Position numbers and translations under genes: made by a program. The notes under the pieces were generated by a model. It was not told the origin of the DNA. It ran no database searches and saw nothing but the letters and a program-made list of their open reading frames with translations. This document shows positions 10,284 through 37,068 of a stretch of 64,000 nt of DNA, piece after piece. Source of the DNA: Euglena gracilis (lineage: Eukaryota); NCBI GenBank assembly GCA_039621445.1, contig CP154954.1, forward strand, positions 24,254,954 through 24,318,953, in the 5' to 3' direction. How positions within the stretch are numbered: the stretch's first letter is position 1; each line of letters begins with the position of its first letter.

Positions 10284-10769
10284 GTCCCAGGCCATACAGT
10301 TGCTAGACCATTGCCAGTGTGCGCTACACCATGGGTCATTAACCCCCCCAAAATAAGACCCCCCCCCCCCGGGCCGATCGAGCAAAAATACAGACCCCCC
10401 AAAAATAAGATCCCCCTGACCCGAAGCACCGAAGGCGGTGAAAATTTTACTTGAAAAGTTACCAAAAAACCCCCAAGAATGATGAAATTTCGCACAAAAA
10501 ATGATGAAATTTTTGAAGTGTAAAAAACATGCTAAATGTCAGCTCTCACCAATTTACACATGGTGCGGAGCGCCAAAGGAAAAATTTTAATGCTTTTGGG
10601 AACCTAAAAATGATTTTTTTTTCCGGGCCCGGGTCGGTCATAACCCCCCCCCCCCTGGAGGTTTCCAGCAATGTTGGGCTCGTTTTTGACTTGGGCTGCC
10701 GCCTTTCCCATCGGGCACTGTGGTTTCCCCAGGGTAGGGTGCACGCGATTGACGGACCACCCTCTGGTC

Positions 10770-13601: not shown

Positions 13602-14206
13602 CAGGCCATACAATTGCTAGACCATTGCCAGTGTGCGTTACACCATGGGTCATTACCCCCCCCCCCCCAAAATAAGACCCCCCCCCCCTGGGCCGATCGA
13701 GCAAAAATCCAAAAGTAAGACCCCCCCAAAATAAGATCCCCCTGACCCGAAGTGCCGAAGGCGGTGAAAATTTTCCTTGAAAAGCTACCAAAAAAACACC
13801 CAATTTCGCACAAAAAATGGTGAAATTTCAAACATTTTCGGATTTTGAAGTGTAACAAACATGCTAAATGTCAGCTCTCACCAATTTACACATGGTGCGA
13901 AGCGCCAAAGGAAAATTTTTAATGCTTTTGGGAACCTAAAAAATAATTTTTTTTCGGTCGGTCAAGAAAAAAATCCAAAAATAGGACCCCCCCCTGGAGG
14001 TTTCCAGCAACGGACCCAAAAATAAGACCCGGGTTTTATTTTTGTGGGGGGGTTTACACCATGGGTGGGCGAATGCCTGAGTGTTCCCCTTATCAGGGTC
14101 CCTCCCCGAGACAAAGGCAGAAAAGTATGTTGGGCTCTTTTTTTGACTTGGTCTGCCGCCTTTCCCATGGGGCACTGTGGCTTCCCCAGGGTAGGGTGCA
14201 CGCGAT
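13602..14206 (+). repeat. Diverged direct copy of 10288-10749 (MITE plus its flanks)
   Basis: Both copies start caggccataca.ttgctagaccattgccagtgtgcg and end gggcactgtgg.ttccccagggtagggtgcacgcgat. Confidence 0.85.
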
Positions 14207-19379: not shown

Positions 19380-19991
19380 TGCTCTGCTATTGTGGAAACG
19401 CCGACGAGTGCCATGATTGCGGCGCCCCCTGATTGTGGAAGTGGCTACGCGGCCAGGCTCCTGTGTCTAAAACAGGGCTTAAAATGACTTCCCAACCCTT
19501 GTTAATCCTTGTCAATAACACTTTCGGGAATATTGCTGTGTCTCGGACAAGGGCTGGGTGGGAATGTAAAATGAAATAACTGGCTGAATTAATTGTAATA
19601 CATAGGTATTGTCATGAGTGGCAAAAATGGCACGAAACTCGGAACACAACGTGTCGAGCATTCACAAAGATTGCTTTTTGCAGCTTCGTGTTTTTTTAAT
19701 CAAATTCTTCCGACAATGTAATGATTTTGTACAAAAACAGCAATTGTGGTGTAATCATCGTTGATTCTATCCTTCTTTGTAGTGCGTGCTTTCAAAAAAA
19801 GTCTCCTGAAAAATGGGTGTTTTGAAAATCGCTCCAGAGTTTTTGAATTTGAAAAAATTTTGGTGGAAACAGCCCAAGGGTGTGAAAATGGGTGTCTGCA
19901 CCCGACCCCTCTGGCTGCAATGCCATGGAGGTTCCAGCGTGTCGTCCATGTTGGCCCCTCCTGTAGCTCTGCAGTGACTCATGCAGCGCCG
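19380..19991 (+). repeat. Segment present three times (also within 31617-32671 and 34654-35700)
   Basis: Near-identical text from tgctctgctattgtggaaacgccgacg onward. The other two copies carry ~450 bp extra between ...tttgaattt and ...tggtggaaac. Confidence 0.9.
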
Positions 19992-20333
19992 TGCCCCACT
20001 TCCTCGCCCCTCCCGATGCGTAGGTTTGCGCTGGTTGGCATTGCTTGCCAACCTGCTCGCAGGCTGTATCGGCCCGCCTTTTGGAGGTTCTTTTCTTTGG
20101 GTATTGTGGAAATGGGCTTTCTGGGCTTCTGGCATCTTCAGGGCCGAAGGCGCCTTGGCCAGGGGTTTTCTTAAGCCGGAGGGTACCATCCCCGGGGGGG
20201 GTCCAGCCAGCCAGCAGCTCAAATCCAGCCAGCAGCCTAAATTCGGGCTGGGAGCCCCCCCCCCCCCGGGGTCGAGTGAAATAAAGTTGGGTTCCAGCCC
20301 AGAAGCTGTACACTTTTCCCACGGGGCGGGCTG

Positions 20334-21521
20334 ATCCTACCCAGTTTGACCCCTTCGCGCGTGAATAATTCGGGCCTGGCAGGGAGTTGGGGGTCAAACC
20401 CAGGTGATTCGGTAACTAGAAATCCAGTCGCTCGCGACTGAAAAAAAAATTCCGGGAACGGGGCCGGGATCATGGTGATAATCCGACGGTTCTCCTGGTG
20501 GCCCCGACCCGGGGGGGGGGAGGGGGGGGTCGAGGGGGGGGTTTCGCCGGGTGTAAGCTTCGCTCTTATCCATAAAGGGAGCGACCCCCGGGGGGGTAGC
20601 GGCTCATTTCCAGCCAGCAGCCTTTTTGCCAGCCGGAGGCTGAACCCCCCCCGGGGGCCCTTCAGAAGCTCCTGACCTTGGCCGATGTGCTAACCCCCCG
20701 CCAAAATAACCCCCCTGACGATGCGTAGCACTGGGACGGTGAAAAATGTCCCTGATAAATCAACAAAAAGCCCAATCACAAAAAGGTCACAAAATGATGA
20801 AATTTCAAAGATTTTCCAATTTTTGAAGTGCAAAAAAACCATGGTAAATGTCAATTTATACCAGTACATACATGGCGCGAAGCGCCGAAGGAAGAATCTT
20901 AGTGTTTTTGGGAACCTGAAAAATGATGATTTTTTCAGGCCCCGGTCGACCAAGAGAAAAGCTAAAAATAAAACTTCCCAAAATACGACCCCACTGGAGG
21001 TTTCCAGCAACCCCCATAAAAGACCCAGGTCTCATTTTGGGGGGTTCCTTTGGGACACCCCCCCCAGGGTGGGGTCGACCCCACCTTGAAATTCAGGCTG
21101 GCAATCTGGGCTAGCAGCATCCCCAGTGGGCGTTGCCGTGGCTGGGGTGGGGACAAAATTGGAATAAATTTTTTCTTCCTCTTTTTTAAATTATAAAAAA
21201 TTAAAATTCTGGTGATTTTCTGACATTTTTGAAGCCACCATTCTTTCCTTCATGTTAGATTTTCCTTGTTCAAGGTCCCAACCAAGGAAATTTTTAAAAA
21301 GTTTGGATCCCGGTGGGGGAGGGGGTAGGGTGGGTGGGTCTGCCAGACACTTTCCCGGCCTGACGGCTGTCACCGCCCACCGCCTGGGTGGTTCCCCCTT
21401 GAGAGCCCCTGCCGCAGACGGGGGTTTTGACCATGGCCATTTCCGCTTTTTTTTTGACCCCAAAGTGATCCCCAAAAATGTGGGTCCCCTGAACCGCCCC
21501 TCCCCCCCCCGCCCGAAGGTA
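20334..21521 (+). repeat. Left copy of a long direct repeat (right copy ~38925-39770), including a subfamily-2 unit end
   Basis: Same module order in both copies. The left copy has ~440 bp of extra MITE-related sequence after gatgcgtagcactgggac. Confidence 0.85.
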
Positions 21522-21538
21522 AATCCCAACCAAATATT

Positions 21539-24500
21539 ACCAGGGTGTGACGTAGAGCTGAGCTCTTTGGGATACCACCCCAGCCCGGCCCGGCGCCCGG
21601 CGCGGCCCGGCGGCCCGGCCCGGCGGCACGGCCCGGCGGCACGGCCCGGCGGCCCGGCCGGCGGCCCGGCGGCCCGGCGGCCCAGCCCAGCGGCCCGGCG
21701 GCCCGGCCGGCGGCCCGGCGGCCCGGCGGCCCGGCCGGCGGCCCGGTGGCCCGGCCGGCGGCCCGGCGGCCCGGCAGCCCAGCGGCCCGGCCGGCGGCCC
21801 CGCGGCTCGGCGGCCCGACCCGGCTGGCGGGTCGAAAAACGCTCATTTTCGGCTCAAAAACAGGTTTTAAGGGTCCTGGAGGCCAAAAAACGTTGTTCTG
21901 GGCAAAATTTTTTTTTGATTTTTTCGACTTTTTTTGGCCCAGTTTTGACCCAAATTCAATGGGTTGGTGGCCCAAAACGGGGCGCTGGAGGGTCGAAAAA
22001 CGCTCATTTTTGGCTCGAAAACACTTTTTTGGGGTGCGGGAGGTCAAAAATCATGGTTTTGGGCAAAATTTTTTTGCAAATTTTTTCGACTTTTTGACCC
22101 AAAAATGGCTAAGTCCACCGGCCAGGGGGGCAGGGGGGGGGTCCGGGTCGGAAAAAACTTTTTCGCCCAAAAACACTTTTTTTTGATGTTCTGAAGTGAA
22201 TAAAAGTGTTTTTGAGCGAAAAAATTTTTTCCAAAATTTTGGGTCCCGACCTGCCACCCGACCCGCCCTCACTGCGCCTGCAGGGGTCCCCGAATACCCA
22301 AAACTGGCCCAAAATCGCGCAACCAGGCCCCGGGAACCCCAAAAAACGGTCAAAACCCCCCCCTAAACCTAATGTTTGACCCCCGGTTTGGGTCCCAACT
22401 CCTCGTCTAGCCCGAGATACGGCCAATTTACGGTTTCGGGCCCCGAAATGGCCAGAACTGGCAAAACTAGCCCAAAACCCCCAAAACGGCCATATCTCGG
22501 GCTAGGCGAGGAGTTGGCCCAAACTGCGCATACCGATCGATCGGGCGTCCCAAAGTTGTGGAAGGATGTCCTCTTCACTTTTTCTCAACTCCGCAGCATT
22601 TTCGAGATATTTTGAATTTTTCGATTTTTGACCCCAAAATCACCCTGCAATTTCCCCGAAAAAAAAAACGGTAGACAACTTTTTTGCTCGGGCCACATCT
22701 CCGGACTGGCGGGGAGTTGCGGGTAACCTAAGGGCTCTGGAGGTACTAGGGATCGTCCCCTGACCTATGGGCCATTCACTTTGGGGGCCACGAAATCCAG
22801 TCACATCGATAATCCCGGGGTTTCCGGACCTACCCAGGGGGGGGGGGGGGGTGGGGGTCCGACCCGCCTCCGGCCCCGGTGGTAAGCTTCGCTCTTACTC
22901 TAAAGAGATAAGAGCTCAGCGACCAGGGTGTGACGTAGAGCTGAGCTCTTTGGGAGACCACCCCAGTCCGGCCGGCGCCCGGCCCGGTCCGGACCGGCCC
23001 GGCCGGCGGCCTGGCGGCCCGGCGGCCCGGCCATGCCGGCGGCCCGGCGGCCCGGCGGCCCGGCGGCCCGGCGGCCCGGCGGCCCGGCAGCCCGGCTGGT
23101 GGCCCGGCGGCCCGGGCCCGGCGGCCTGGCCCGGCCGGCGGCCCGGCCCCGGCCCGGACCGGCCCGGCAGCCCGGCCCGGCGAGGCCGGCGGCCCGGCGA
23201 GGCCGGCGGCCCGGCCCGTCCCGGCCGGCGGCCCGGCGGCCCGGCCCGGCCCGGCCGGCGGCCTGGCGGCCCGGCCCGGCCCGGCCCGGCCGGCGGCCCG
23301 TGGAGCTCTTTTGACTGAAATGCAAGAGTTTTGTGCCCAAAACGGGGCGCCGGGGGTTGGAAAACGTCCATTTTCGGCTCAAAAAAACACCGTTTCCGGG
23401 TCCGGGAGGCCAAAAAACATCGTTTCGGGCGAAAATAATTTTCGAATTTTTTCGACTTTTTTCGACTTTTCGACCGAAAATCAATGGGTTTGCGGCCCAA
23501 AACGTGGCGCCGGCGGGTCGAAAAACGCTTGTTTTCGGCTCAAAAACAGTTTTTCTGGGTCTGGGAGGCCAAAAAACATTGTTTCGGGCAAATTTTTTTT
23601 TGGATTTTGTTCGACTTTTTTGACCTGGTTTTGACCCAAAGTCAATGGGTTGGCAGCCCAAAACGGGGCGCTGGAAGGTCGAAAAACGCTCGTTTTCGGC
23701 GGGAGGTCAAAAAACATGGTTTTGGGCGAAAATTTTTTTTGACTTTTTTTGACTTTTTGACCCAAAAATGGCTAAGTCCACCGGCCAGGGGGGGCGGGCC
23801 CCAGCCAGGGGGGGGGGGGCATGCGGGGGGGGGGGTCCGGGTCGGTAAAATTTTTTTCGCTCAAAAACACTTTTTTTGATGTTCTGAAGTGAAAAAAAGT
23901 GTTTTTGAGCGAAAAAAAATTTCAGAATTTTGGGTCCCGACCTGCCACCCGACCCCCCGCCCAGCCGCCCTCACGCCGCCCGGTGGGGTTCCCGAATACC
24001 CAAATCTGCCCCAAATTCGCACAACCAGACCCCGGGAACCCCAAAAAACGGTCAAAACACCCCCCTAAACCAATGATTGACCCCCTGGTTTGGGTCCCAA
24101 CTCCCCGTCTAGCCCGAGATACGGCCAATTTACGGTTTCGGGCCCCGAAATGGCCAAAACTGGCAAAACTAGCCCAAAAACCCCCAAAACGGCCGTATCT
24201 CGGGCTAGGCGAGGAGTTGGCCCAAACCGCGCATACCGATCGATAGGGCGTTCCAAGGTCGTCAAATTAGGTCGCCATCACTTTTCCTCAACTCCGCAGC
24301 GTTTTCGAGATATTTTGAATTTTTCGATTTTTGGACCCCCAGCCGGCGGCCCTCGAACCCCCGCAGGGGTCCCCGAATACCCAAAAATGGCCCAAAATCG
24401 CACAACCAGACCCCGGGAACCCCAAAAAACGGTCTAAACCCCCCCTAAACCTAATGATTGACCCTCTGGTTTCGGTTCCAACTCCCCATCTAGCCCGAAA

Positions 24501-26505
24501 TACGGGCAAATCGGTTTCGGGCCCCGAACGGGCCCGAAATGGCCGAAACTGGCCAAACTGGCCCAAAACCACAAAACGGCCGTATCTCGGGCTAGGCGGG
24601 GAGTTGGCCCAAACCGCGCATACCGATCGATCGGGCGTCCCAAAGTTGTGGAACGACGTCCTCATTACTTTTTCTCAACTCCGCGGCGTTTTCGAGATAT
24701 TTTGAAATTTTCGATTTTTTGACCCCAAAATGACCCTGCAATTTCCCCGGAAAAAAAAACGGTAGACAACTTTTTTGCTTGGGCCATATCTCCGGAGTGG
24801 CGGAGAGTTGCGGGTAACCGAAGGGCTCTGGAGGTACTAGGGATCGTCCCCTAACCTATAGGCCATTCACTTTGGGGGCCCGGAAATCCAATCACATCGA
24901 TAATCCCGGGGTTTCCGGACCTACCCAGGGGGGGGGGGGGCGGGGTGGGGGTCCGACCCGCCTCCGGCCCCGGTGGTAAGCTTCGCTCTTACTCTAAAGA
25001 GATAAGAGCTCAGCGACCAGGGTGTGACGTAGAGCTGAGCTCTTTGGGAGACCACTCCGGCCCGGCCCGGGAAAAACACTCATTTTCGGCTCAAAAACAG
25101 TTTTTCCGGGTCCGGGAGGGCAAAAAACGTCGTTTCGGGCAAAAAATTTTTTCGATTTTTTTCGACTTTTTTGACCCGGGGTTGACCTAAAGTCAATGGG
25201 TTGGCGGCCCAAAGCGGGGCGCTGGCGGGTCGAAAAACGTTCATTTTTGGCTCGAAAACATTTTTGTCGGGTCCGGGTGGTCAAAAAACATGGTTTTGGG
25301 CAAAATTTTTTTGATTTTTTTTGACTTTTTTGACCCAAAAATGGCTAAGTCCACCGGACCCAGCCAGGCGGGGGGGGCATGGGGGGGGGGTCCGGGTCGG
25401 AAAATTTTTTTTCGCTCAAAAACACTTTTTTTGATGTTATGAAGTGAAAAAAAGTATTTTTGAGCCAAAAAATTTTTTTCAAAATTTTGGGTCCCGACCT
25501 GCCACCCGACCCCCCGTCGCCCAGCCGCCCTCACGCCGCCCGCAGGGGTCCCCGAATACCCAAAACTGGCCCAAAATCGCACAACCAGACCCCGGGAACC
25601 CCAAAAAACGGTCAACCCCCCCCCCTAAACCTAATGATTGACCCCTGGTTTGGGTCCCAACTCCTCGTCTAGCCCGACGGCCAATTTACGGTTTCGGGCC
25701 CGAACAGGCCCGAAATGGCCAAAACTGGCCCAAAACCCCCAAAACGGCCATATCTCGGGCTAGGCGAGGAGTTGGCCCAAACCGCGCATAGCGATCGATA
25801 GGGCGTCCAAAAGTTGTGGAGGGATGTCCTCTTTACTTTTCCTCAACTCCACAGCGTTTTCGAGATATTTTGAATTTTTTGACTTTTTGATCCCAGCCCG
25901 GTAGCCCTCGAACCCCTGCAGGGGTCCCCGAATACCCAAAAATGGCCCAAAATCGCACAACCAGACCCCGGGAACCCCAAAAAAACGGTCAACCCCCCCC
26001 CCCCTAAACCTAATGATTGACCCCCTGGTTTGGGTTCCAACTCCTCGTCCAGCCCGAGATACGGGCAAATTACGGTTTCGGGCCCCGAACGGGCCCGAAA
26101 CGGCCAAAACTGGCCAAACTGGCCCAAAACCACAAAACGGCCATATCTCGGGCTAGGCGAGGAGTTGGCCCAAACCGCGCATACCGATCGATCGGGCGTC
26201 CCAAAGTTGTGGAAGGACGTCCTCTTCACTTTTTCTCAACCCCGCAGCGTTTTCGAGATATTTTGAAATTTTCGATTTTTTGACCCCAAAATGACCCTGC
26301 AATTTTCCGGAAAAAAAAAACGGTAGACAACTTTTTTGCTCGGGCCATATCTCCGGACTGGCGGGGAGTTGCGGGTAACCTAAAGGCTCCAGAGATACTA
26401 GGGATCGTCCCCTAACCTATGGGCTTTTCACTTTGGGGGCCACAAAATCCAGTCACATCGATAATCCCGGGGTTTCCGGACCTACCCGGGGGGGGGGGGG
26501 GGGGG

Positions 26506-26537
<32 letters not shown>

Positions 26538-29261
26538 CGGGGCCCCCCGTCCCCGGTGGTAAGCTTCGCTCTTACTCTAAAGAGATAAGAGCTCAGCGAC
26601 CAGGGTGTGACGTAGAGCTGAGCTCTTTGGGAGACCACCCCTGCCCGGCCCGGCGGCCCGGCCCGTCCGGCGGCTCGGCGTCCCGGCCAGGCCGGCCCGG
26701 CGGCCCGGGGCCCCCGTCGACGGCCCGCCCGGCGGCCCTCCGGTCCCCCGGAACCCGGCCCTTTTCTGGATCACGACTCCGTGGTTTTTGGTCAAAAAAC
26801 ATTTTTTTTTTTTGATTCTTTTTTTCGGGGGTTGGAGGTGCTTTTGGGTGAAATTTTTTTTGAATTTTTTTGACTTTTTTGATCCAAAATGGCTAAGTCC
26901 ACTGGCCAGGGGCGGGCCCCCAGCCAGCCAGGGGGGGGGGCTCGGAAGGGCATGGGGGGTGCGGGTCGGAAATTTCGCGGGCCCAGTGGTGGGTCTTTAA
27001 CATTGATGTTCTGAATGAAAAAAAGTGTTTTTGAGCGAAAAATTTTTTTTTTCAAAATTTTGGGTCCCGACCTGCCACCCCGCCCCCCCCCCTACGCTCG
27101 GGGCCCCGCCCCCCCGACCCAATGCTAACGCCGCCCCCGATCCAACCCCCTCCCCCCTCCCCCCCCCCAAACCCATCCCCAACCCCCATGGACCCCCCCG
27201 GGGGGAGTGGGGAAAACTCAACGCAAAATTGGGGTCCAGTTGTAACCGCTCACACGGGCGTGGGGCGTGCCCCAACCCGAACCCCTGGCCAAAAGTCTCA
27301 CAAGGTGGACGGGCAAAACCTTCAATTATCGTTTTCGATTATTTTCGATTTTGGGTTTTGACCCAACCTGGCTCCCCCCTATATCCCGCCGTCACCTCCT
27401 CCACGGGGTGGCCGAACTTGGCAGAAATTTAGGCGGTTTGGGGTCCCTCATCTGGTTGGACCCCACCCATGGGTGGCCCCGAACGCCCCCCCGTGGGTGC
27501 CCTTCACTCCAAAAAAGGCCAATTGTGCGGGTTGGGGGGAGGGAAAAACGGATTGGACCCCCAAACTGGGTCCCAAACTCCCTCATAATCCAACCTTTGC
27601 CCCCAAAAACATTTTGGATCGACCAAATGGGGTCCCCTCCCCCTCTCCCGCCTGCCGAAAACCCTCGACGGGTGGGTCCCCGAATACCCAAAAATGGCCC
27701 AAAATCCCACAACCCGACCCCGGGAAACCCAAAAAACGGTCAAAAACTAAACCATGATTGACCCCCTGGTTTGGGCTCCAACTCCCGTCTAGCCGAGATA
27801 CGGCAAATTACGGTTCCGGGCCCGAACGGGCCCGAAATGGCCAGAACTGTCAAAACTGGCCCAAAACCCCAAAACGGCCTTATCTCCGGCTAGGCGGGGA
27901 GTTGGCCCAAACCGCGCATACCGATCGATCTGGCGTCCCAAAGTTGTGGAATGACGTCCTCTTTACTTTTTGTCAATTCCGCGGTGTTTTCGAGTTATTT
28001 TGCATTTTTATATTTTTTGCCCCCAAAATGACCGTGCGATTTCCCCGGAAAAAAAAAACGGTAGACAACTTTTTTGCTCGGGCCATATCTCCGGACTGGC
28101 GGGGAGTTACGGGTAACCGAAGTGCTCTGGAGAAACTAGGGAACCTCTCCTAACCTATAGGCTATTCACTTTGGGGGAAATCCAATCACATCGATAATCC
28201 TCGGGTGCCCCGACCTACCCAGGGGGGGGGGCGGGGTGGGGGAGGGGGGGCCTTCGCTCTTACTCTAAAGAGATAAGAGCTCAGCGACCAGGGTGTGACG
28301 TAGAGCTGAGCTCTTTGGGGGACCATTCCGGCCCGGCCTGCGAAAAACGCTCATTTTTGGCCCAAAAACATGTTTTCTGGATCCGGGAGACCATAAAACA
28401 TCGTTTTGGGCTGAAAAATTTTTTCGATATTTTTCGACTTTTTTGACCCGGTTTTGACCCAAAGTCAATGGGTTGGCGGACCAAAAAGGGGCCCTGGCGG
28501 GTCGAAAAACGCTCATTTTCAGCTCAAAAACACTTTTTCCGGGTCCGGGAGGCCAAAAAACATGGTTTTGGGCGAAAAATTTTTTTTCGATTTTTTTCGA
28601 CTTTTTTGACCCGGTTTTGACCCAAAGTCAATGGGTTGGCGAACCAAAACGGGGCGCTGGCGGGTCGAAAAACGCTCATTTTCGGCCTAAAAACACTTTT
28701 TCCGGGTCCGGGAGGCCCAAAAACATGGTTTTGGGCGAAAAAATTTTTTTTCGATTTTTTTCGACTGTTTGGCCCGAAAACGGCTAAGTCGGACAGTGGG
28801 AAAAGTGTACAAAACGGCCATTTGGACCGAAAAACGGCCATATCTCGGGCCAGGCGGGGAGTTGGCCCAAACTGCGCATACCGGTGGATAGGGCGTCCCA
28901 AAGTTGTGGAATGAGGTACTCTTTAGTTTTTCTCAACTCCCCAGCGTTTTCGAGATATTTTGAATTTTTCGATTTTTTGACCCCAAAAATGACCCCTTTT
29001 GCCGGTCCAACAAAATTTCTTTGGAAAAAAAACGGTAGACAACTTTTTTGCTCGGGCCAGATCTCCGGCGTGGCGCGGAGTTGCGGGCAACCTAAGGGCT
29101 CTGGACAAACTAGGGACCGTCTCCTAACCTATAGGCTATTAACCTTTCGGGTCCCGAAATCCAATCACATCGATAATCCTCGGGGGCCCGAGCCTACTCA
29201 GGGGGGGGGGGGCGGGGGGGCGGGGGGGGGGGGGCGGGGGGGGGGGGGGGGGGGGGGGGGG
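21539..29261 (+). mobile_element. Head-to-tail array of five non-coding modular units: 21539-22921, 22922-25015, 25016-26598, 26599-28286, 28287-~29261 (truncated)
   Basis: Each unit starts ACCAGGGTGTGACGTAGAGCTGAGCTCTTTGGG. The four complete units end CTTCGCTCTTACTCTAAAGAGATAAGAGCTCAGCG, and the four junctions are identical. Module order is conserved. Confidence 0.9.
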
Positions 29262-29263
29262 TA

Positions 29264-30975
29264 ATCCCTTTATGGGTAAGAGCGAAGCTTACCACCGGCG
29301 AAACCACCCCCCCCCCCCGACCCCCCCCCCCTCCCCCCCCGCCCCCCCCGGGTCGGGGCCACCTCGGGAACCGACGGATTATCACCATGATCCCGGCCCC
29401 GTTCCCGGATTTTTTTTTTTTCAGTCGCGAGCGACTGGATTCGTAGTTTCCGAAGCACCTGGGTTTGACCCCCAACTCCCCGCCAGGTCCGAGTTATTCA
29501 CGCGCGAAGGGGTCCAAACTGGGTAGGATCGGTCCGCCCCCCCCCCCCCCTTTGGACTCTGCCATTTCGGCCAAAAAAATGTCAATTTTCAAAATATCTC
29601 CAAAATGAAGCCAAATCAAAGGAAATGTCCGGAGACCTAAATTGAAGCCCTTGGAACGCCCCATCCACCGGTATTTTGATTTCCCCCCAACTCCCCGCCT
29701 AGCCCGAGATACGGCCGTTTTCGGCCCGGATGGCCGTTTTGTACACTTTTCCCTCTGTTCGACTTGGCCGTTTTCGGGGGGTGGGGGGTCAAAAAATCGA
29801 TGTTTTCAAAATTTATCGAAAATGATGCAAAATCAAAGGAAATGTCCGGAGACCTAAATTGAAGCCCTTGGAACGTCCCATCTACCGGTATTTTGGTTTC
29901 CCCGCAACTCCCCGCCCAGCCCGAGATACGGGCGTTTTTTTGGCCAATTTGGGCCATTTCAGGCCATTTTGTACACTTTTCCCTCTGTTCGACTTAGCCG
30001 TTTTCCGCCAAAAAAATCAAGAAAAATCGGAAAATCTTTTTTTGCCCGAAACGATGTTTTTTGGCCTCCCGGACCCGGAAAAACTGTTTTTGAGCCGAAA
30101 ACGAGCGTTTTTCGACCCGCCAGCGCCCCGTTTTGGGCCGCCGACCCATTGACTTTGGGTCAAAACCGGGTCGAAAAAGTCGAAAAAAATCGAAACCCGA
30201 AACGATGTTTTTTGGCCTCCCGGACCCAGAAAAACTGTTTTTGAGCCGAAAACGAGCGTTTTTCGACCCGCCAGCGCCCCGTTTTGGGCCGCCGACCCAT
30301 TGACTTTGGGTCAAAACCGGGTCGAAAAAGTCGAAGAAAATCCAAAAATTTTTTTTTGCCCGAAACGATGTTTTTTGGCCTCCCGGACCGTGAAAAACTG
30401 TTTTTGAGCCGAAAACGAGCGTTTTTCGACCCGCCAGCGCCCCGTTTTGGGCCGCCGACCCATTGACTTTGGGTCAAAACCGGGTCGAAAAAGTCGAAAA
30501 AAATCCAAAAAAATTTTTTTGCCCGAAACGATGTTTTTTGGCCTCCCGGACCCGGAAAAACTGTTTTTGAGCCGAAAACGAGCGTTTTTCGACTCGCCAG
30601 CGCCCCGTTTTGGGCCGCCGACCCATTGACTTTGGGTCAAAACCGGGTCGAAAAAGTCGAAAAAAATCCAAAAATTTTTTTTGCCCGAAACGATGTTTTT
30701 TGGTTCTCGGACCCGGAAAAACTGTTTTTGAGCCGAGACTGAGTGTTTTTCGACCCGTTTTGGGTGGCCGACCTATTGACTCTGGGTCAAAACCGGGTCA
30801 AAAAAGTGGAAAAAATCGAAAAAATTTTTTTTGCCCGAAACGATGTTTTTGGGTCTCCCGGACCCGGAAGAACTGTTTTCGAGCCGAAAATGAGCGTTTT
30901 TCGACTTCGACCCACCGGCCCCCTGTTTCTGGCACAAAACCCATGGATTTCAGGCAAAAGAGCTCCATGGAGTGG
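29264..30975 (-). mobile_element. Inverted subfamily-2 unit (CCCATAAAGGG hairpin variant)
   Basis: atccctttatgggtaagagcgaagcttacc is the reverse complement of the unit end seen at 39143-39172. The body is homologous to 38368-39184. Confidence 0.85.
30044..30905. repeat. Tandem ~163-bp repeat (about 5 copies) with regularly spaced A/T tracts
   Basis: cccgaaacgatgtttttt recurs at ~30045, 30196, 30359, 30522, 30684 and 30834. Confidence 0.9.
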
Positions 30976-31105
30976 GCCGGTATGTATGGAGGGGTCAATG
31001 AAGGGGTGGGTGCGCGCTTATTAAGACCTCAGCACTATTCAAAACCTGGTTTCGGGGGGGGGGTGGTAAGCTTCGCTCTTACTCTAAAGAGATAAGAGCT
31101 CAGCG

Positions 31106-32670
31106 CCCCCCCCCCCCCAAATAATACCCCCCCTTTGGTGTCTGACTTTGGCTGCCGAAATAATACTCCCCCCCCCCCGGTTTCGGGCCGAAGGCCCGAA
31201 TTTTTACCTGAAAATGAAGGTAAAAATCACAATCTCTGACAACATATTACGAAAAAAATCGATTCTTCTGGCTCATCAGACCTCCAAAAAATGGTAAATT
31301 TCACAAGAAAGTGCAAAAAATGACCCCAAAGGGGGGTTTTGGGTGCTATTTTGGGTTTTACGGGACTTCGAAAAATTTCGAAAATTTTGGAAAAAATAAT
31401 ACCCCCCCTCCCCAAATAATACCCCCCCCCTCGGGCCGGGACTTCGGGCGAAAAAAATAATACCCCGGGGGGTATTGTTTGGGGGGGGTATACCCCTGGA
31501 TGGATGGGTTGGAACCCCCCCAACTCCTCCGCGGCCTTAAAAAATGGGGGCTTGGAGCCCATTGAGCACCTCCGACCCGTGTCCCAAGCCTTCTGGCCTA
31601 TCCCACAGTGCCACGTTGCTCTGCTATTGTGGAAACGCCGACGAGTGCCATGATTGCGGCGCCCCCTGATTGTGGAAGTGTCTACGCGGCCAGGCACCTG
31701 TGTCTAAAACAGGGCCTAAAATGACTTCCCAACCCTTGTTAATCCTTGTCAATAACACTTTCGGGAATATTGCTGTGTCTCGGACAAGGGCTGGGTGGGA
31801 ATGTAAAATGAAATAACTGCCTGAATTAATTGTAATCCACAGGTATTGTCATGAGTAGCAATAATGGCACGAAACTCGGAACACACGTGTCGAGCATCCA
31901 CAAAGATTGCTTTTTGCAGCTTCGTGTTTTTTTTAATCAAATTCTTCCGACAATGTAATGATTTTGTACAAAAACAGCAATTGTGGTGTAATCATCGTTG
32001 ATTCTATCCTTCTTTGTAGTGCGTGCTTTCTTAAAAAAGTCTCCTGAAAAATGGGTGTTTTGAAAAATCGCTCCAGAGTTTTTGAATTTCAGAGCAAAGG
32101 TGTCTAAATTGGTGGTCTCCAAATTCAGCGGAGATGACCAGGTCTCCCCCCCCCCCCCCCCCGCCGACCCCTCCCTGCGGGGTCAGGTTTTGGGGCAGGG
32201 AGTGTAGCGTTGTGCCCCCCCCGCCGAGCGCTTGGCCCCCCTCCTCCTCACATGCAAACCTGGCCGCCCTGAAGCTGACTTCAGGAAAATATTTGACTGT
32301 TGGCTTGCGCTGGACCCAAACCGCACCCCCCCCCCACCGGGGATTATGCGCAGCAGAATCTCTTCTGTCAGGATTTTCCCTTCCCACGTACGATTTTTGA
32401 ACAGAGCCTCACCTAGATTTGATCAGTTTTCATGAATACGTCCCTGCTTCCTTTGACATGGGTTTCTGATTGAAGACTTGTGAACGTCTGATGAATCATT
32501 GGACTTTCAGAACAACCCAGTTTTGGTCAAGAAAATTTTTTGGTGGAAACAGCCCAAGGGTGTGAAAATGGGTGTCTGCACCCGACCCCTCTGGCTGCAA
32601 TGCCGTGGGGGTTCCAGCGTGTCGTCCATGTTGGCCCCTCCTGTAGCTCTGCAGTGACTCATGCAGCGCC
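31106..32670 (+). repeat. ~1.55 kb direct duplication (second copy ~34165-35700)
   Basis: Near-identical sequence; each copy starts immediately after a unit end (...GCTCAGCG) at a C tract. Confidence 0.9.
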
Positions 32671-34163
32671 GAAGCTTACCACCCCGGCGACGGGGGGGTC
32701 CAACCCCCCCCGCCCCCCCCCCCCCGCCCCCCCCGCCCCCCCCCCCCGCGCCCCCCCGCCCCCCCCCCCCTGGGTGCAATGGCCCCCGAGGATTATCGAT
32801 GTGATTGGATTTCCGGGCCCCCAAAGTGAATAGCCTATAGGTTAGGAGATGGTCCCTAGTTTCTCCAGAGCCCTTCGGTTACCCGTAACTCCCCGCCAGC
32901 CCGGAGATATGGCCCGAGCAAAAAAGTTGTCTACCGTTTTTTTTTCCGGGGAAATTGCAGGGTGATTTTGGGGTCAAAAAATCGAAAAATTCAAAATATC
33001 TCGAAAACGCTGGGGAGTTGACAAAAAGCGAAGAGGACGTCGTTCCACAACTTTGGGACGCCCGATCGATCGGTATGCGCGGTTTGGGCCAACTCCTCGC
33101 CTAGCCCGAGATACGGCCGTTTTGTGGTTTTGGGCCAGTTTTGCCAGTTTTGGCCATTTCGGGCCTATACGGGGCCCGAAACCGTAATTTGCCCGTATCT
33201 CGGGCTAGACGGGGAGTTGGAACCCAAACCAGGGGGTCAATACTTAGGTTTAGGGGGGGGTTTTGACCGTTTTTTGGGGTTCCCGGGGCCTGGTTGTGCC
33301 ATTTTGGGCCAGTTTTGGGTATTCGGGGACCACCGGCGCGTCAGGGCGGTGGCTGGGGGGGGTCGGGAACAGTGCAGGTCGGGACCCAAAATTTTTTTTC
33401 GCTCAAAAACACTTTTTTTCACTTCAGAACATCAAAAAAAGTGTTTTTGAGCGAAAAAAATTTTCCGACCCGAACCCCCCCCATGCCCCCCCCCCCTGGC
33501 TGGGGCCCGCCCCCTGACCGGTGGACATTTTTGGGTCAAAAGCCGAAAAAATTCGAAAATTTTTTTTTTGACCAAAACCATGATTTTTGACCTCCCGGAC
33601 CCGAAAAAAGTGTTTTCGAGCCAAAAATGAGCGTTTTTCGACCCGCCGGCGCCCCGTTTTGGGCCGCCAACCCATTGACTTTGGGTCAAAACCGGGTCAA
33701 AAAGGTCGAAAAAAATCGAAATTTTTTTTTGCCCCAAAGCGATGTTTTTTGGCCTCCCGGACCCGGAAAGCCTGTGTTTGAGCCGAAAATGAGCGTTTTT
33801 CGACCCGCCAGCGCCCCGTTTTGGGCCACCAACCCATGACTTCAGGTCAAAACCGGTCAAAAAAGTCGACAAGAATTGAAAAAAAAAATTTGGGCCCAAA
33901 ACCGTGTTTTTTGGCCTCCCTGACCCAGAAAAAAATGTTTTTGAGCCGAAAATGAGCGTTTTTCCCGGGACGGGCCGGGGTGGTCTCCCAAAGAGCTCAG
34001 CTCTACGTCACACCCTGGTCACTTTGGGGGCCCAGAAATCCAATCACATCGATAATCCTCGGGTGCCCCGACCTACCCAGAGGGGGGGGGCGGGGGGGGT
34101 CGGACCCCCCAGTCGCCGGGGTGGTAAGCTTCGCTCTTACTCTAAAGAGATAAGAGCTCAGCG
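32671..34163. mobile_element. Inverted near-full unit (32671-34019) joined to a short forward copy of the unit end (34020-34163)
   Basis: ...acgtcacaccctggt at 34005-34019 is the reversed unit start. 32671-32829 and 34020-34132 are mutually inverted. Confidence 0.85.
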
Positions 34164-37068
34164 ACCCCCCCCCAAATAATACCCCCCCCAAATAATACCC
34201 CCCCCTTTGTCTGACTTTGGCGACCGAAGGCCCGAATTTTTACCTGAAAATGAAGGTAAAAATCACAATCTCTGACAACATATTACGAAAAAAATCGATT
34301 CTTCTGGCTCATCAGACCTCCAAAAAATGGTAAATTTCACAAGAAAGTGCAAAAAATGACCCCAAAGGGGGGTTTTGGGTGCTATTTTGGGTTTTACGGG
34401 ACTTCGAAAAATTTCGAAAATTTTGGAAAAAATAATACCCCCCCCCCCCCAAATAATACCCCCCCCCCTCGGGCCGGGACTTCGGGCGAAAAAATAATAC
34501 CCCGGGGGGTATTGTTTGGGGGGGGGTTACCCCTGGATGGATGGGTTGGAACCCCCCCAACTCCTCCGCGGCCTTAAAAAATGGGGGCTTGGAGCCCATT
34601 GAGCACCTCCGACCCGTGTCCCAAGCCTTCTGGCCTATCCCACAGTGCCACGTTGCTCTGCTATTGTGGAAACGCCGACGAGTGCCATGATTGCGGCGCC
34701 CCCTGATTGTGGAAGTGGCTACGCGGCCAGGCACCTGTGTCTAAAACAGGGCCTAAAATGACTTCCCAACCCTTGTTAATCCTTGTCAATAACACTTTCG
34801 GGAATATTGCTGTGTCTCGGACAAGGGCTGGGTGGGAATGGAAAATGAAATAACTGCCTGAATTAATTGTAATACACAGGTATTGACATGAGTGGCAAAA
34901 ATGGCACGAAACTCGGAACACACGCGTAGAGCATCCACAAAGATTGCTTTTTGCAGCTTCGTGTTTTTTTAATCAAATTCTTCCGACAATGTAATGATTT
35001 TGTACAAAAACAGCAATTGTGGTGTAATCATCGTTGATTCTATCCTTCTTTGTAGTGCGTGCTTTCTTAAAAAAGTCTCCTGAGAAATGGGTGTTTTGAA
35101 AGATCGCTCCAGAGTTTTTGAATTTCAGAACAAAGGTGTCTAAATTGGTGGTCTCCAAATTCAGCGGAGATGACCAGGTCTCCCCCCCCCCCCCCCCCCG
35201 CCGACCCCTCCCTGTGGGGTCAGGTTTTGGGGCAGGGAGTGTAGCGTTGTGCACCCCCCGAGCGCTGGCCCCCCTCGTCCTCACATGCGATCCTGTCCTC
35301 CCTGAAGTTGACTTCAGGAAAATTTTGACTGTGCTTGCGCTTCCACCCCCCCCCCCAAACCGCCCCACCCCCCCCCGGGATTATGTGCAGCAGAATCTCT
35401 TCTGTCAGGATTCCCCTTCCACGGATTTTGAACAGAGCCTCACCTAGATTTGATCAGTTTTCATGAATACGTCCCTGCTTGCTGTGACATGGGTTTCTGA
35501 TTGAAGACTTGTGAACGTCTTATGAATCATTGGACTTCAGAACAACCCCCGTTTGGGTCAAGAAAAATGGTGGAAAACAGCCCAAGGGGGTGAATATGGG
35601 TGTCTGCACCCGGCCCCTCGGGCTGCAAATATGCGGCGCCGCGGCCCGGTTTCCGGGCTCAGCTGGATTGCAATTTTGACCGTGACTCATGCACGCTTGC
35701 GCTGAGTCCTCAAAAGTGCAACTTATGGCGCTGGATGCGCGGTTGGCATTGTTAAATGCCAACCCCCCCGCAGGCTGATTCCCCCCACCTTCCTTCCTTT
35801 GCGAGTGGAATCAGGTTTGGGGGGAAGGGTATAGGGTGCCTCGGCCTGCAGGCCAGAGGCCAGCTCCTGCGCTTTGTTCTAAGCTCCCCCTGCTTCCTCC
35901 ATGCCACCCCATCCGGCCAGCGCATGACCGACAGTGTCCACCAAGCGCTGCTCAGCCCCCCTGAGGGATTTCCCCCCCCCCACCCCCTGGAGCATGTTGT
36001 CCCTCCTGGACCATAGTTCATGCCGGCACTGATGCGCCGACCAACCTGGCCCTCACCGGCCCCCATTGACTGGCAATGACCCCCGTCAGCCAGACCTTTC
36101 CAGCGCCATCTGATGACGCTTTTGCACCCAAAATGACCGGCGTGAATCGTCCCGTAGTTTTGATCATCATTAAGTCTTTGACAGAAAATTTTTTGTTTGT
36201 TTTCATGACCAAAAAAGCCCAATGAGCACCCTCATGGCCATCTCAGGCCGCACATGGCCATGTGGATCTGTACATGAGTCATCTGGCCGCGGAATAACGC
36301 TCCCCCACCCTTCATGCCCCCTATCGCGGGTCCCGAGCTCGCGAGGCTTATAAGGGGTCCATGGGTGTCGGGATGGGTGAGGGGGGGGTCGGCCAAGCTT
36401 CCATCTTACCCATTGGCTCTTTTTCCTCTACGACATTTTGGTTCGGCACAGAGCCCACTGCCCCTGAGCGCCCTGGGGGTCAAGCTTCATTGAGGTTTTT
36501 GAGCAAATAGGGGCCCCTGACCGGGGATGGTGTTCACCATAACCACCTGAAGACCTCAGCCCAATTGTGGGCCTCCCCCATGATGGCTCTGACCGTTTTT
36601 TTTTGTGATCCTGGGCAAGCCCACCCTTGCCTTCATGATGATTGTTCAGCCAAGGTACTGAAGCTGCCACCATGATTGTGGCCATCATGTTGGCCCCTGC
36701 CCAATGGCCTGACCTTGTCGCCGACCTGGGTGCGCCATGAGGTCGAAAATGGCCACTAGTTTTTTGACAATAACCGCACCCCCTCCGATGGGTTGGAAAC
36801 CAAGCCTATTGAGCCTTTTTTATTCATGCACCCCATATGACCTGTCTGCGCACAAATGGCCGAAACACATGCGGTCTGTGGCCACGATGGGCCCATTTTC
36901 CCGAGGCAAGTGGAAACGGGCCAGGATTTGTGTTTTTTCTATTTTTTTGTTTTCGGACACATGGCATGGTGAATGAAAAATATAACTGCATTGTACACGT
37001 GGGGCATCATGAGGCATGAAATGGCCCACTTGGAAACCCATGATCCACATTTCGATTGTGTTTTTTTG

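What the first reader, a model, noticed from the sequence alone, without database searches (positions are those of the whole stretch)
21539..29261. Non-coding mobile unit in exact head-to-tail concatemers with invariant junctions and variable interiors
Seen: five tandem units of 1383, 2094, 1583, 1688 and >970 bp. The interiors vary freely in copy number of their modules (CCGG-rich tract, A/T-tract repeats, a ctagcccgagatacggcc module, poly-G). All four junctions read ...AAGAGCTCAGCG|ACCAGGGTGTGACG... identically. Inference: this is not a homogenised satellite. Diverged monomers joined at a fixed nucleotide point to an end-specific mechanism: rolling-circle concatemers (Helentron/Helitron2-like), Penelope-like tandem insertion, or repeated insertion into its own end. 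No RT, Rep/helicase or transposase ORF is present, so it would be non-autonomous. I do not recognise the family.
Basis: partly seen in the sequence, partly recalled or inferred. Interest (0 to 1): 0.85.

Follow-up and report, generated by a model that had tools for sequence, protein, structure and literature searches.

The report
Stacked non-coding transposon copies, Helitron-like ends
A very abundant protein-less mobile DNA element with fixed ends sits here as five different copies stacked head to tail beside a run of C's, with ends built like those of rolling-circle (Helitron-type) transposons.

Summary
The 26-nt junction occurs exactly four times, against 0 expected, and the unit lengths are as stated. 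Two corrections. Unit 5 is complete: a related 1.8-kb element is nested, inverted, in its poly-G tract, and the unit ends at 31105. The cut point is ambiguous by 1-3 nt.

The junction coincides with real element ends:
- Solo ends occur elsewhere in the window.
- In two independent DNA runs, 112-188 contigs per junction leave the 3' end at the same base and continue as C-runs.
- Only the two termini are invariant among six copies that differ by 8-28%.
- No protein domain (301 ORFs) and no ribozyme were found.

Read on the minus strand, the unit is 5'-TC...CTGG-3' followed by T (4 of 4). It has an 11-nt terminal/subterminal inverted repeat, hairpins near both ends, microsatellites and central tandem repeats, and no target duplication (2 of 2 sites).

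Best reading: a non-autonomous Helitron2/HINE-like element that inserts at G-run|T and re-creates that target, so different family members stack head to tail. The class is unproven, because no genome, Repbase or Dfam was available.

The parts
21539..22921 (+). unit 1 (1383 bp), leftmost; its left flank is ...CCCAACCAAATATT
22922..25015 (+). unit 2 (2094 bp): long CCGG tract, about 3 x 163-bp repeats, 2 x 387-bp module
25016..26598 (+). unit 3 (1583 bp), the unit used as reference for read laying
26599..28286 (+). unit 4 (1688 bp), the most divergent unit, with a private segment at about 27090-27660
28287..29261 (+). unit 5, left part, ending inside its own poly-G tract
29262..31049 (-). nested full-length B-type relative (1788 bp). 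On the minus strand its 5' end reads C10-GAA|ACCAGGTTTTGAATAGTGCTGAGGTCTT and its 3' end ...CTCTTACCCATAAAGGGATTA|C-run. It holds 5.5 copies of the 163-bp repeat
31050..31105 (+). unit 5, right part: TTTCG-G10-TGGTAAGCTTCG...CTCAGCG, the true end of the array
25004..25044 (.). junction hairpin: 11-bp inverted repeat AAGAGCTCAGC / GCTGAGCTCTT with a 19-nt loop that holds the unit boundary. The same structure is at the other three junctions
24985..25009 (.). subterminal hairpin GCTCTTA-CTCT-AAA-GAGA-TAAGAGC, present in every unit. The B-type has CCC/GGG in the inner stem
31106..31118 (+). C13 run that flanks the array on the right. It is part of the left inverted repeat of a 378-bp MITE-like element and is the inferred target
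32670..34019 (-). solo A-type copy in opposite orientation. Its ACCAGGG end is intact at 34019; its other end is cut at GGTAAGCTTCG
34020..34164 (+). A-type 3' fragment ending ...CTCAGCGA, followed by C9
38366..39185 (+). B-type copy without its 5' end; its 3' end ...GGGATAAGAGCTCAGCGA is followed by C8
20323..20585 (+). B-type 3' part, a paralogue of 38916-39233, with a deletion in the terminal hairpin, followed by C5
59229..59529 (+). B-like 5' fragment: CACCAA|ACCAGGTTTTGAATAGTGGTGAACTCTT plus one 163-bp-like repeat

Best explanation
This is a family of protein-less (non-autonomous) mobile elements of 1.4-2.1 kb with fixed termini. Read on the window's minus strand, a unit is 5'-TCGCTGAGCTCTT...CACACCCTGG-3'. 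It inserts in one orientation, without target-site duplication, between a G-run and a T (on the plus strand, A|C-run).

Its ends are built like those of Helitron-type rolling-circle transposons, closest to Helitron2 and the Helentron-derived HINE/DINE-1 elements:
- a TC start and a CTGG end followed by a host T;
- an 11-nt inverted repeat that lies 2 nt from one terminus and 17 nt from the other;
- hairpins beside both ends;
- microsatellites and central tandem repeats.

Inferred: a Rep-helicase encoded elsewhere nicks one strand at these ends, and the head-to-tail junction is the joined-ends form. Because the element begins with T, each insertion re-creates 'G-run|T' at its own start. Later copies, from different family members, then land at the same spot and stack head to tail with an identical junction. 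Read-through rolling-circle copying may add to this. The 163-bp central repeat has spread further as a satellite.
For: SHOWN.
- Termini are real and precise. Besides the 4 junctions, the window holds 7 strong 5' ends and 9 strong 3' ends.
- In DNA runs X1 and X2 (different samples and studies), 174/188 contigs leave the reference right after ...AGCGACC at 25018, and 112 (X1) at 26601. All continue as C-runs.
- 123,240 and 139,797 contigs were laid, so the family is very abundant.
- Mobility: a full-length B-type copy is nested in unit 5's poly-G. A paralogue at 39.77 kb has the two flanks Q|R adjacent, without the MITE-plus-array block.
- No target duplication at 2 of 2 reconstructible sites. 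Both are restored without gain or loss of a base if the element is TC...CTGG.
- The flank on the TC side is a G/C run in 5 of 5 window cases. The base after CTGG is T in 4 of 4.
- Only the termini are invariant. Of 1081 windows of 33 alignment columns, 4 have no variable site: 1 at the very 5' end and 3 at the very 3' end. Overall 397 of 1113 columns vary. The six A-type copies differ by 8-28%.
- The 11-nt repeat and ACCAGG are kept in the B-type, while the spacer between them has changed.
- The 11-bp stem is in the centroid fold of both strands.
- The subterminal hairpin has one compensatory pair, T-A against C-G, between A- and B-type.
- No ORF domain was found.

FROM PAPERS (passages read).
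- HINEs have 12-15-bp palindromic subTIRs 2-4 nt from the 5' end, a 3' palindrome, and central repeats or microsatellites (PMC4067079).
- Helitron2 has asymmetric terminal inverted repeats and hairpins at both termini (PMC5148889).
- Precise joined-end junctions and tandem Helitron arrays are known (PMC5876387; 10.1101/2021.06.02.446622).
Against: - No Rep-helicase could be sought: no genome is held, and there is none in the window.
- The target G|T is neither A|T (canonical Helitron) nor TT (Helentron).
- The small hairpin before CTGG (AGAGC-TCA-GCTCT) does not form in the one B-type copy that has that end.
- Fold z-scores are weak: -1.6 and -2.4.
- The covariation is one event only, and 24 of 500 shuffles reach it.
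- At 31106 the expected A (T on the minus strand) is a C.
- The TC/CTGG reading uses a 1-nt freedom in placing the boundary.
- Reconstruction of the nested site assumes that TTTCG is native to unit 5, as it is in B-types.
- Units 1-3 are a little closer to each other (8%) than to the solo copy (10%), so some local duplication is not excluded.
- Private substitutions show no age gradient along the array.
- 121 of the 212 G/C runs in the window are preceded by A anyway, so an A|C-run flank is partly what this genome offers.
- RNA from both strands exists at low depth, so an RNA route is not excluded.
- No loose end on the 5' side of the junction is among the rows shown (2208 rows hidden).
- No copy was found outside this organism's runs.
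- Repbase and Dfam could not be searched.
Confidence: 0.5

Rival explanations
1. A retroelement without its own enzyme (SINE-like or Penelope-like), copied by target-primed reverse transcription. The nick is made at G-run|T. The RNA 5'-ACCAGG...AGCGACC-3' primes on the run, and template jumps between RNAs through the shared ACC join different copies head to tail.
For: The 3' end (plus-strand sense) is precise and abuts a homopolymer in 112-188 contigs per site. ACC is shared at both ends. Different units in one array would follow from jumps between RNAs. Low-level RNA is present on both strands. No 5'-side loose end is among the rows shown, as would be expected if arrays start with truncated units.
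Against: There is no tail and no target duplication at 2 of 2 sites. Depth of the 5' terminal bins is about the same as that of the 3' bins (0.8-1.4 M against 1.0-1.3 M), so there is no 5'-truncation gradient. RNA starts or ends do not pile up at the junction, though depth there is only 2-14 (table 6). No hammerhead, HDV-like or other self-cleaving ribozyme, and no tRNA, 7SL or 5S head, at E<=10. Terminal/subterminal inverted repeats are not a retroelement feature.
Confidence: 0.15
2. An element that integrates from a double-stranded circle by site-specific recombination (a Crypton or DIRS-like derivative). The crossover takes place in a short core (ACC) shared by the circle junction and the target. 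Further circles recombine with a resident end and build tandems.
For: ACC stands on both sides of the unit, and the target ...TTACC|CCCC is restored exactly. There is no target duplication. The junction carries two inverted 11-bp arms, as a recombinase site does.
Against: The arms are 19 nt apart and the crossover lies 1-4 nt from one arm, unlike the 6-8-bp spacers of known tyrosine-recombinase sites (recalled, not tested). The solo copy at 34019 has ACC where the interrupted sequence has none. No recombinase ORF is in the window.
Confidence: 0.1
3. An ordinary long-monomer satellite or local segmental duplication. One unit was duplicated in place, inner sub-repeats changed copy number by slippage and unequal exchange, and the 'junction' is just a non-repetitive part of the monomer.
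For: The inner length differences are changes in copy number of sub-repeats. The surrounding 19-40 kb is a mosaic of segmental duplications. Units 1-3 are slightly closer to each other than to the solo copy.
Against: The array starts and ends exactly at the same points as the solo copies and the nested copy. Hundreds of contigs end the unit at one base and go on as C-runs. Only the two termini lack variable sites, which neutral decay in place does not predict.
Confidence: 0.07
4. The same Helitron-like element, but the array was made in one event by rolling-circle read-through (a concatemer) and the units diverged afterwards.
For: Tandem Helitron arrays are ascribed to a bypassed termination signal (PMC4067079, PMC5876387, passages). 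All units share one orientation and one exact junction.
Against: Copies of one template would decay evenly. Here the termini are invariant while 36% of columns vary. Units differ by 8-28% and in subfamily-like traits: unit 5 has a B-like TTTCG segment. Private changes are only 1.4-2.4% in units 1-3, so most differences are shared with other copies and so probably predate the array.
Confidence: 0.1

Closest known systems
HINE / DINE-1-like elements (non-autonomous Helentrons) and Helitron2 elements
   Same: No coding capacity. A short palindromic inverted repeat lies 2 nt from one terminus and well inside the other (asymmetric). Hairpins lie near the ends. There are a microsatellite and central tandem repeats of variable copy number, no target duplication, very high copy number and clustering. 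The central repeat is more abundant than the ends, as in satellite-forming DINE-type elements (features from PMC4067079 and PMC5148889, passages; here).
   Different: The target here is G-run|T, not TT or TNAT|A. The inner inverted repeat is 17 nt from the end rather than about 20-60. The repeat is 11 nt rather than 12-15. No Rep-helicase partner is known. Units of 1.4-2.1 kb stand in arrays of unlike copies.
Canonical Helitrons (Helitron1) and their tandem arrays in bat, silkworm, maize centromeres and the Drosophila pseudoobscura Y
   Same: 5'-TC and 3'-CTRR (CTGG) with a host T after the end. A small hairpin lies 14 nt before the 3' end in the A-type. There is no target duplication. Head-to-tail junctions have the two ends joined directly, like the joined-end circle junction of Helraiser (PMC5876387; 10.1101/2021.06.02.446622, passages).
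   Different: Canonical Helitrons have no terminal inverted repeats and insert after a host A. Here the host side is a G-run. The known arrays are explained by read-through and are often partial copies. Here five full, mutually different units share an invariant junction.
IS200/IS605 and IS91 (bacterial HUH single-strand transposons)
   Same: The geometry is alike: subterminal hairpins, cleavage a fixed few bases outside them, orientation-specific insertion next to a short specific sequence that stays beside the element and can be used again, and no target duplication (recalled general knowledge; cited within PMC5876387's reference list, not read).
   Different: Those are prokaryotic and carry their own transposase. 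No sequence relation was tested.

Membership tests
Helitron (canonical, Helitron1) | 5'-TC and 3'-CTRR termini | tested here: met
   On the minus strand the unit reads TCGCTGAG...CACACCCTGG, and the B-type reads TC...AACCTGG. The boundary has a 1-nt freedom, and one end (31106) lacks the T.
Helitron (canonical, Helitron1) | 16-20-nt palindrome about 10-12 nt before the 3' end | tested here: inconclusive
   The A-type has AGAGC-TCA-GCTCT (13 nt) 14 nt before CTGG. The one B-type copy with this end cannot form it.
Helitron (canonical, Helitron1) | insertion between host A and T without target duplication | tested here: not met
   No duplication at 2 of 2 sites and host T in 4 of 4. However, the 5' host side is a G-run in 5 of 5 window cases and in the contig consensus.
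Helitron / Helentron in general | autonomous partner encoding Rep-helicase with the same termini | not testable with these tools
   No genome is held. There are 0 Pfam families in 301 window ORFs.
Helitron2 / Helentron-HINE | asymmetric terminal (subterminal) inverted repeats, one 2-4 nt from the 5' end and the other tens of nt inside the 3' end | tested here: met
   GCTGAGCTCTT lies 2 nt from the TC end, and AAGAGCTCAGC lies 17 nt from the CTGG end. The 11-mer (up to 1 mismatch) has 15 matches in the window against 0.42 expected. It is kept in the B-type with 1 mismatch.
Helitron2 / Helentron-HINE | palindromes/hairpins near the termini; central tandem repeats or microsatellite | tested here: met
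   The hairpin GCTCTTA..TAAGAGC has one compensatory pair. CCGG tract, poly-G, 163-bp and 387-bp repeats are present.
Helentron-HINE | insertion into TT with T strings at the boundaries | tested here: not met
   The flanks are G-run and T.
Penelope-like elements / retrozymes | hammerhead ribozyme in the repeated ends; RT with GIY-YIG in full copies | tested here: not met
   The Rfam scan of 20300-35700 at E<=10 gave 82 rows, none a hammerhead, HDV-like, twister, pistol or hatchet. The only ribozyme-type row is nuclear RNase P at 17.6 bits, below its gathering score of 28. No RT is in the window.
non-LTR retrotransposon / SINE | 3' tail, target-site duplication, frequent 5' truncation, pol III head for SINEs | tested here: not met
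   No duplication at 2 of 2 sites. Depth of the 5' bins is about that of the 3' bins. No tRNA and no 7SL or 5S match.
satellite DNA | arrays with arbitrary phase at their edges; no discrete solo units inserted elsewhere | tested here: not met
   The array edges coincide with the termini, and there are solo and nested copies.
cut-and-paste TIR transposon / MITE | inverted repeats at the very termini plus target-site duplication | tested here: not met
   The outermost bases (CCAGGGTG... and ...CTCAGCGA) are not inverted copies of each other, and there is no duplication.

The most novel reading that the evidence does not exclude
This is a mobile-element type not yet described. It recognises the edge of a G/C homopolymer, integrates one strand there without duplication, and by its own first base restores the target. 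Arrays are then built one unlike unit at a time at the same address. On this reading the family, and the 163-bp satellite it seeds, are a main shaper of this homopolymer-rich genome, and the enzyme need not be a Helitron Rep-helicase.
Probability: 0.2. Interest if true: 0.7.

Novelty: new variant of a known kind. Interest (0 to 1): 0.5.

Why it matters
Head-to-tail transposon arrays are usually put down to rolling-circle read-through, which gives identical copies. Here the copies differ while the junction is invariant. That points to a second route to the same pattern: a target that the element restores by inserting. The route is directly testable in an organism in which the family is extremely abundant.

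The locus also shows a transposon's central repeat (163 bp) outnumbering its ends about tenfold. That is a clear case of a satellite arising from a mobile element. It also ties a mobile family to the unusual wealth of G/C homopolymers in this genome.

Tried and rejected
- **Whole-genome search:** not possible, because no genome is held.
- **Exact scans of public collections:** 3' end 24-mer and a 163-bp-repeat 24-mer in metagenome contigs; junction 29-mer in prokaryote genome contigs; 5' end 24-mer in viral contigs. All gave 0 matches, so there is no outside copy to compare.
- **Earlier notes of this scan:** nothing, by place, sequence or words.
- **Rfam:** 0 at gathering scores over the window. 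At E<=10 there were only miRNA-like rows on the inner palindromes and poly-G/C hairpins, plus scattered sRNA, lncRNA and cis-regulatory rows, all below their gathering scores, and one sub-threshold RNase P row, all taken as chance.
- **Small RNA gene array with spacers** (5S, SL or snRNA-like): rejected. There is no Rfam match, and RNA depth at the junction is not raised (2-14 reads per bin).
- **tRNA head:** none.
- **AAGACCTCAGC at 36550:** looked like a possible covarying end but has no related context, so it is chance.
- **Age gradient along the array** from private substitutions: none readable. Unit 4's 13% is inflated by its private segment.
- **A fuzzy-regex script for ends:** timed out; replaced by the DNA search and nhmmer.
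- **Taxon:** not established. One paper on a slime mould reports large homopolymer tracts (PMC4758236, passages). I did not test any link to this window and draw no conclusion.

Full report
**1. The observation**

The 26-mer AAGAGCTCAGCG|ACCAGGGTGTGACG occurs four times, all exact and all on the plus strand, at 22910, 25004, 26587 and 28275. None occurred in 100 shuffles.

Tandem Repeats Finder confirms the variable inner modules:
- CCGG-type tracts at 21586-21817, 22968-23300 and 26643-26738;
- a 161-163-bp repeat, 2.3 copies at 23335-23700 and 2.6 copies at 28341-28770;
- a 387-bp module, 1.9 copies at 23985-24726;
- poly-G of 55 and 61.

No protein domain is present. Of the 306 stop-to-stop ORFs of at least 90 aa in the whole window, 301 were scanned against Pfam, with 0 families at E<=0.01.

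**2. Corrections to the observation**

Unit 5 is not truncated at 29261.
- From 29262 to 31049 lies a related element on the other strand, here called B-type.
- It matches the B-type copy at 38366-39172 at 80% over 871 bases. It holds 5.5 copies of the 163-bp repeat.
- It has its own 5' end, ACCAGGTTTTGAATAGTGCTGAGGTCTT, which aligns to the A-type ACCAGGGTGTGACGTAGAGCTGAGCTCTT (nhmmer E 1.5e-09).
- Right after it the plus strand reads TTTCG-G10-TGGTAAGCTTCGCTCTTACTCTAAAGAGATAAGAGCTCAGCG up to 31105. That is the missing end of unit 5.

The array is therefore five complete units, 21539-31105, with a nested insertion in the poly-G tract of the last one.

The junction is also not a plain joint. 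The last 11 nt of a unit (AAGAGCTCAGC, then G) are the exact inverted copy of bases 19-29 of the next unit (GCTGAGCTCTT). The 11-mer (up to 1 mismatch) has 15 matches in the window against 0.42 expected. Folded as single-stranded DNA, this 11-bp stem with a 19-nt loop is in the centroid structure of both strands, though the z-scores are modest at -1.6 and -2.4.

**3. Are the junctions real element ends?**

Yes, for four reasons.

(a) *Solo ends in the window.*
- The 5' end motif occurs six times exactly: five in the array and one on the minus strand at 34019.
- Profile searches add the B-type end at 31050 and a B-like end at 59229 (sequence).
- The 3' end occurs nine times. It stands outside a tandem junction at 31105, 34164, 39185, 20585 and 29262.

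(b) *Genome-wide evidence.* I laid two DNA runs of different samples and studies (X1, X2; Logan contigs) and two RNA runs (X21, X24; raw reads) on unit 3 with both junctions (24880-26720, likeness 88).
- 123,240 and 139,797 contigs were laid, so the family is very abundant.
- 174 (X1) and 188 (X2) contigs follow the reference up to 25018 (...AGCGACC) and then leave it. Another 112 (X1) do so at the second junction, 26601.
- The consensus of what follows is C7-8, two to four A/T-rich bases, then C9-15.
- The 3' end is therefore precise genome-wide, and its alternative neighbour is a C-run.
- No loose end on the 5' side of the junction is among the rows shown. However, 2208 rows are hidden and the tool says that some were not counted, so I draw nothing firm from that.

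(c) *Conservation.* I aligned six A-type copies: five units plus the solo copy 32670-34019.
- 397 of the 1113 columns that hold at least five sequences vary.
- Of 1081 windows of 33 such columns, only 4 have no variable site: one at the very 5' end and three at the very 3' end.
- The first 33 nt and the last 35 nt are identical in six of six A-type ends.
- Pairwise distances on 675 gap-free columns are 8% among units 1-3, 10% from these to the solo copy, about 15% to unit 5 and 23-28% to unit 4. Unit 4 is inflated by a private segment.
- Private substitutions are only 1.4-2.4% in units 1-3 and the solo copy. Most differences are therefore shared with other copies and so probably predate the array.

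(d) *An empty-like paralogue.* At 39.77 kb two flanking segments (Q and R) are adjacent: GAAGGTA|TTCCTGGGTGGATGGG. At the array locus the same Q and R are about 10 kb apart, separated by the array plus a 378-bp MITE-like element.

**4. Insertion sites**

*The nested B-type copy.* On the plus strand the order is G61 | B | TTTCG-G10-TGGTAAGC. B-type copies natively read G-run-TTTCG/C...TAAGC (20520-20556 and 39112-39147). If TTTCG is native to unit 5, the site was G-run|TTTC. Nothing was duplicated or lost if the inserted element runs from T (29262) to CTGG (31049).

*The array.* Its left flank is CCCAACC-AAATATTA and its right flank is C13-AAATAATA-C7-TTTGG. Joined, these give the doubled motif that stands intact at 34165-34205, C9-AAATAATA-C8-AAATAATA-C8-TTTG. 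That motif is the left inverted repeat of the MITE-like element (22-nt arms, 95% complementary). Again nothing is duplicated or lost, provided the leftmost A is host and the units run CCAGG...AGCGA.

So 2 of 2 reconstructible sites show no target duplication and the same kind of target, A|C-run. On the minus strand this is G-run|T.

- The flank on that side is a G/C run in 5 of 5 window cases: 31106, 34165, 39186, 20586 and 29261.
- At 31106 the expected A is a C.
- The base next to the other end is A in 4 of 4 cases, that is, T after CTGG on the minus strand: TAATATT, TCACTTT, TTTCGGG and TTTGGTG.
- A caution: G/C runs of at least 7 are very common here. There are 212 in 64 kb, and 121 of them are preceded by A. 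My own estimate from base composition is that fewer than ten would be expected. Only 4 of those sites carry an element end.

**5. Anatomy read on the minus strand**

5'-TC-GCTGAGCTCTT-ATCTCTTTAGAGTAAGAGC-GAAGCTTACC ... poly-C ... 387-bp modules with long palindromes ... 163-bp repeats ... CCGG tract ... CCCAAAGAGCTCAGCTCTACGTCACACCCTGG-3', followed by T.

- The inverted repeat is 2 nt from the 5' end and 17 nt from the 3' end.
- The 5' copy overlaps a hairpin, GCTCTTA...TAAGAGC. Its inner stem is CTC/GAG in the A-type and CCC/GGG in the B-type. That is one pair changed on both sides, in 3 against 3 distinct rows. 94% of cells are paired, against 20-58% when the partners are slid. 24 of 500 shuffles reach the score.
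- The 3' copy is itself a small hairpin, AGAGC-TCA-GCTCT, 14 nt before the end. The one B-type copy that has this end cannot form it.
- Between A- and B-type the terminal ACCAGG and the 11-nt repeat are kept, while the 12-nt spacer has changed.

**6. RNA**

- Both RNA runs show low depth on both strands: 2-14 reads per bin at the termini, and 22-264 on the 163-bp repeat.
- Only about 5-6% of each run was read.
- Starts or ends do not pile up at the junction. The only such place listed is 25296.
- 16 reads in X24 run through a solo 3' end into C-rich flank.
- Rfam finds nothing at gathering scores. At E<=10 it finds no self-cleaving ribozyme. The rows are mostly miRNA-like hits on palindromes, plus a few other RNA types, all below their gathering scores, and one RNase P row at 17.6 bits, below its threshold of 28.
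- There is no tRNA.

**7. Interpretation**

*Shown:* a non-coding unit with fixed ends, which occurs solo, nested and in head-to-tail arrays. It inserts in one orientation at the edge of a G/C run without target duplication. Its ends alone are conserved.

*Comparison with the papers (passages read):*
- HINE/DINE-1 elements have 12-15-bp palindromic subterminal inverted repeats 2-4 nt from the 5' end and 38-60 nt from the 3' end, a 3' palindrome, microsatellites and central repeats, and a TT target (PMC4067079).
- Helitron2 elements have asymmetric terminal inverted repeats and hairpins at both termini. Joined-end circles and tandem copies are reported for them (PMC5148889).
- Canonical Helitrons have 5'-TC, 3'-CTRR, a hairpin about 11 nt from the 3' end, and insert at A|T (same papers).
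- Helraiser forms precise joined-end junctions that the transposase cleaves on one strand, and tandem Helitron arrays are known (PMC5876387; 10.1101/2021.06.02.446622).

The element here combines TC/CTGG-T with the asymmetric inverted repeat and the HINE-like inner layout. Its target is different.

*Inferred:* mobilisation in trans by a Rep-helicase.

*Origin of the array:* one-shot read-through would give identical units that decay evenly, which one search does not show. The simplest account is that an insertion at G-run|T leaves G-run|T(C...) intact, because the element starts with T. The same address is then hit again by other family members. This gives the junction ...CTGG|TC... each time and leaves the run on one side of the array, as seen here and in the contig consensus.

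*Confidence:* about 0.85 that this is a mobile family with end-specific joining, and about 0.5 for the Helitron-type mechanism.

**8. Rivals**

- Target-primed reverse transcription with template jumps through the shared ACC would also use a nick at G-run|T and would explain unlike units. It lacks a tail, a duplication, a truncation gradient and a ribozyme or pol III head.
- Recombinase-mediated integration of circles through an ACC core fits the exact restoration of the target. The 19-nt spacing of the arms does not fit, and the copy at 34019 has ACC where the interrupted sequence has none.
- A plain satellite is disfavoured by section 3.

None of the rivals is excluded without the genome.

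**9. What could not be done**

- No whole genome is held, and there is no Repbase or Dfam.
- No copies were found in metagenome, prokaryote-genome or viral collections.
- Only one read-laying run was available, so the 5'-side flanks genome-wide and the ratio of tandem to solo ends remain unknown.
- The contigs are short, and no listed piece spans the stretch. Independent support for this particular array is therefore indirect: it rests on the distinct unit interiors in the assembly and on junction bins covered at the depth of their neighbours.

**10. Verdict**

This is a real, very abundant, non-autonomous mobile family, stacked head to tail at a homopolymer edge. In architecture it is closest to Helitron2/HINE elements, but its target and the make-up of its arrays set it apart: a new variant of a known kind, with the class unproven. 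Interest 0.5.

Noticed in passing
whole window: G/C homopolymer runs of 7 or more are extremely frequent: 212 in 64 kb on both strands, 125 of them outside 19-40 kb. 121 are preceded by A. Many sit in a motif C-run, 8-9 A/T-rich bases, C-run (e.g. CCCCCAAAATAAGA|C-run at 721-1058, 10359, 13678).
   Followed up: partly
31106-31494 and 34164-34531: A MITE-like element of about 380 bp with 22-nt terminal inverted repeats CCCCCCCCAAATAATACCCCCC / GGGGGGTATTGTTTGGGGGGGG, 95% complementary. Both copies have an A-type element end abutting a C-run of the left repeat.
   Followed up: partly
25066-25251; 30045-30905; 23335-23700; 28341-28770: The 163-bp inner repeat has about ten times the summed contig depth of the element's termini in both DNA runs (8-20 M against about 1 M). 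335-385 contigs continue it as its own array, so it looks like a satellite that grew out of the element.
   Followed up: partly
37068-38367: A 1.3-kb satellite of short palindromic units (CATCATGGGTCATGATGGC-like, about 19 bases by eye) matches itself on both strands. It directly abuts a B-type copy that lacks its 5' end.
   Followed up: no
19380-19991, 31617-32671, 34654-35628; 20590-21521 and 39285-39770; 31495-31617, 34532-34654, 39773-39897: The 19-40 kb region is a mosaic of segmental duplications at 88-97% identity, around which the elements are arranged differently in each copy.
   Followed up: partly
720-1110, 10288-10671, 13602-14054, 18610-18800, 20696-21046: Another dispersed repeat family of about 350-400 bp, at 70-80% identity. 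One copy interrupts the flank just left of the array.
   Followed up: no
13200-13400: A more distant relative of the B-type 3' region (...CCATGGTGATAATCC...GCTCTTACTCTGAAGG), found by the 3'-end profile at E 0.0079. The superfamily has older members.
   Followed up: no
27090-27660: Unit 4 holds about 570 bp that match nothing else in the window. This may be a variant module or another nested insert.
   Followed up: no
whole window: None of the 301 ORFs of at least 90 aa that were scanned has a Pfam match, and there is no tRNA. The 64 kb look gene-free or hold only short exons.
   Followed up: partly
25016-26598 against the DNA runs: Where unit 3 differs from most genomic copies it more often has A or T where they have G or C (A>G 18-19 and T>C 21-22 places, against G>A 8 and C>T 8). 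This is as expected from C-to-T decay of this copy. The three CpGs at the junction are intact in all units.
   Followed up: no
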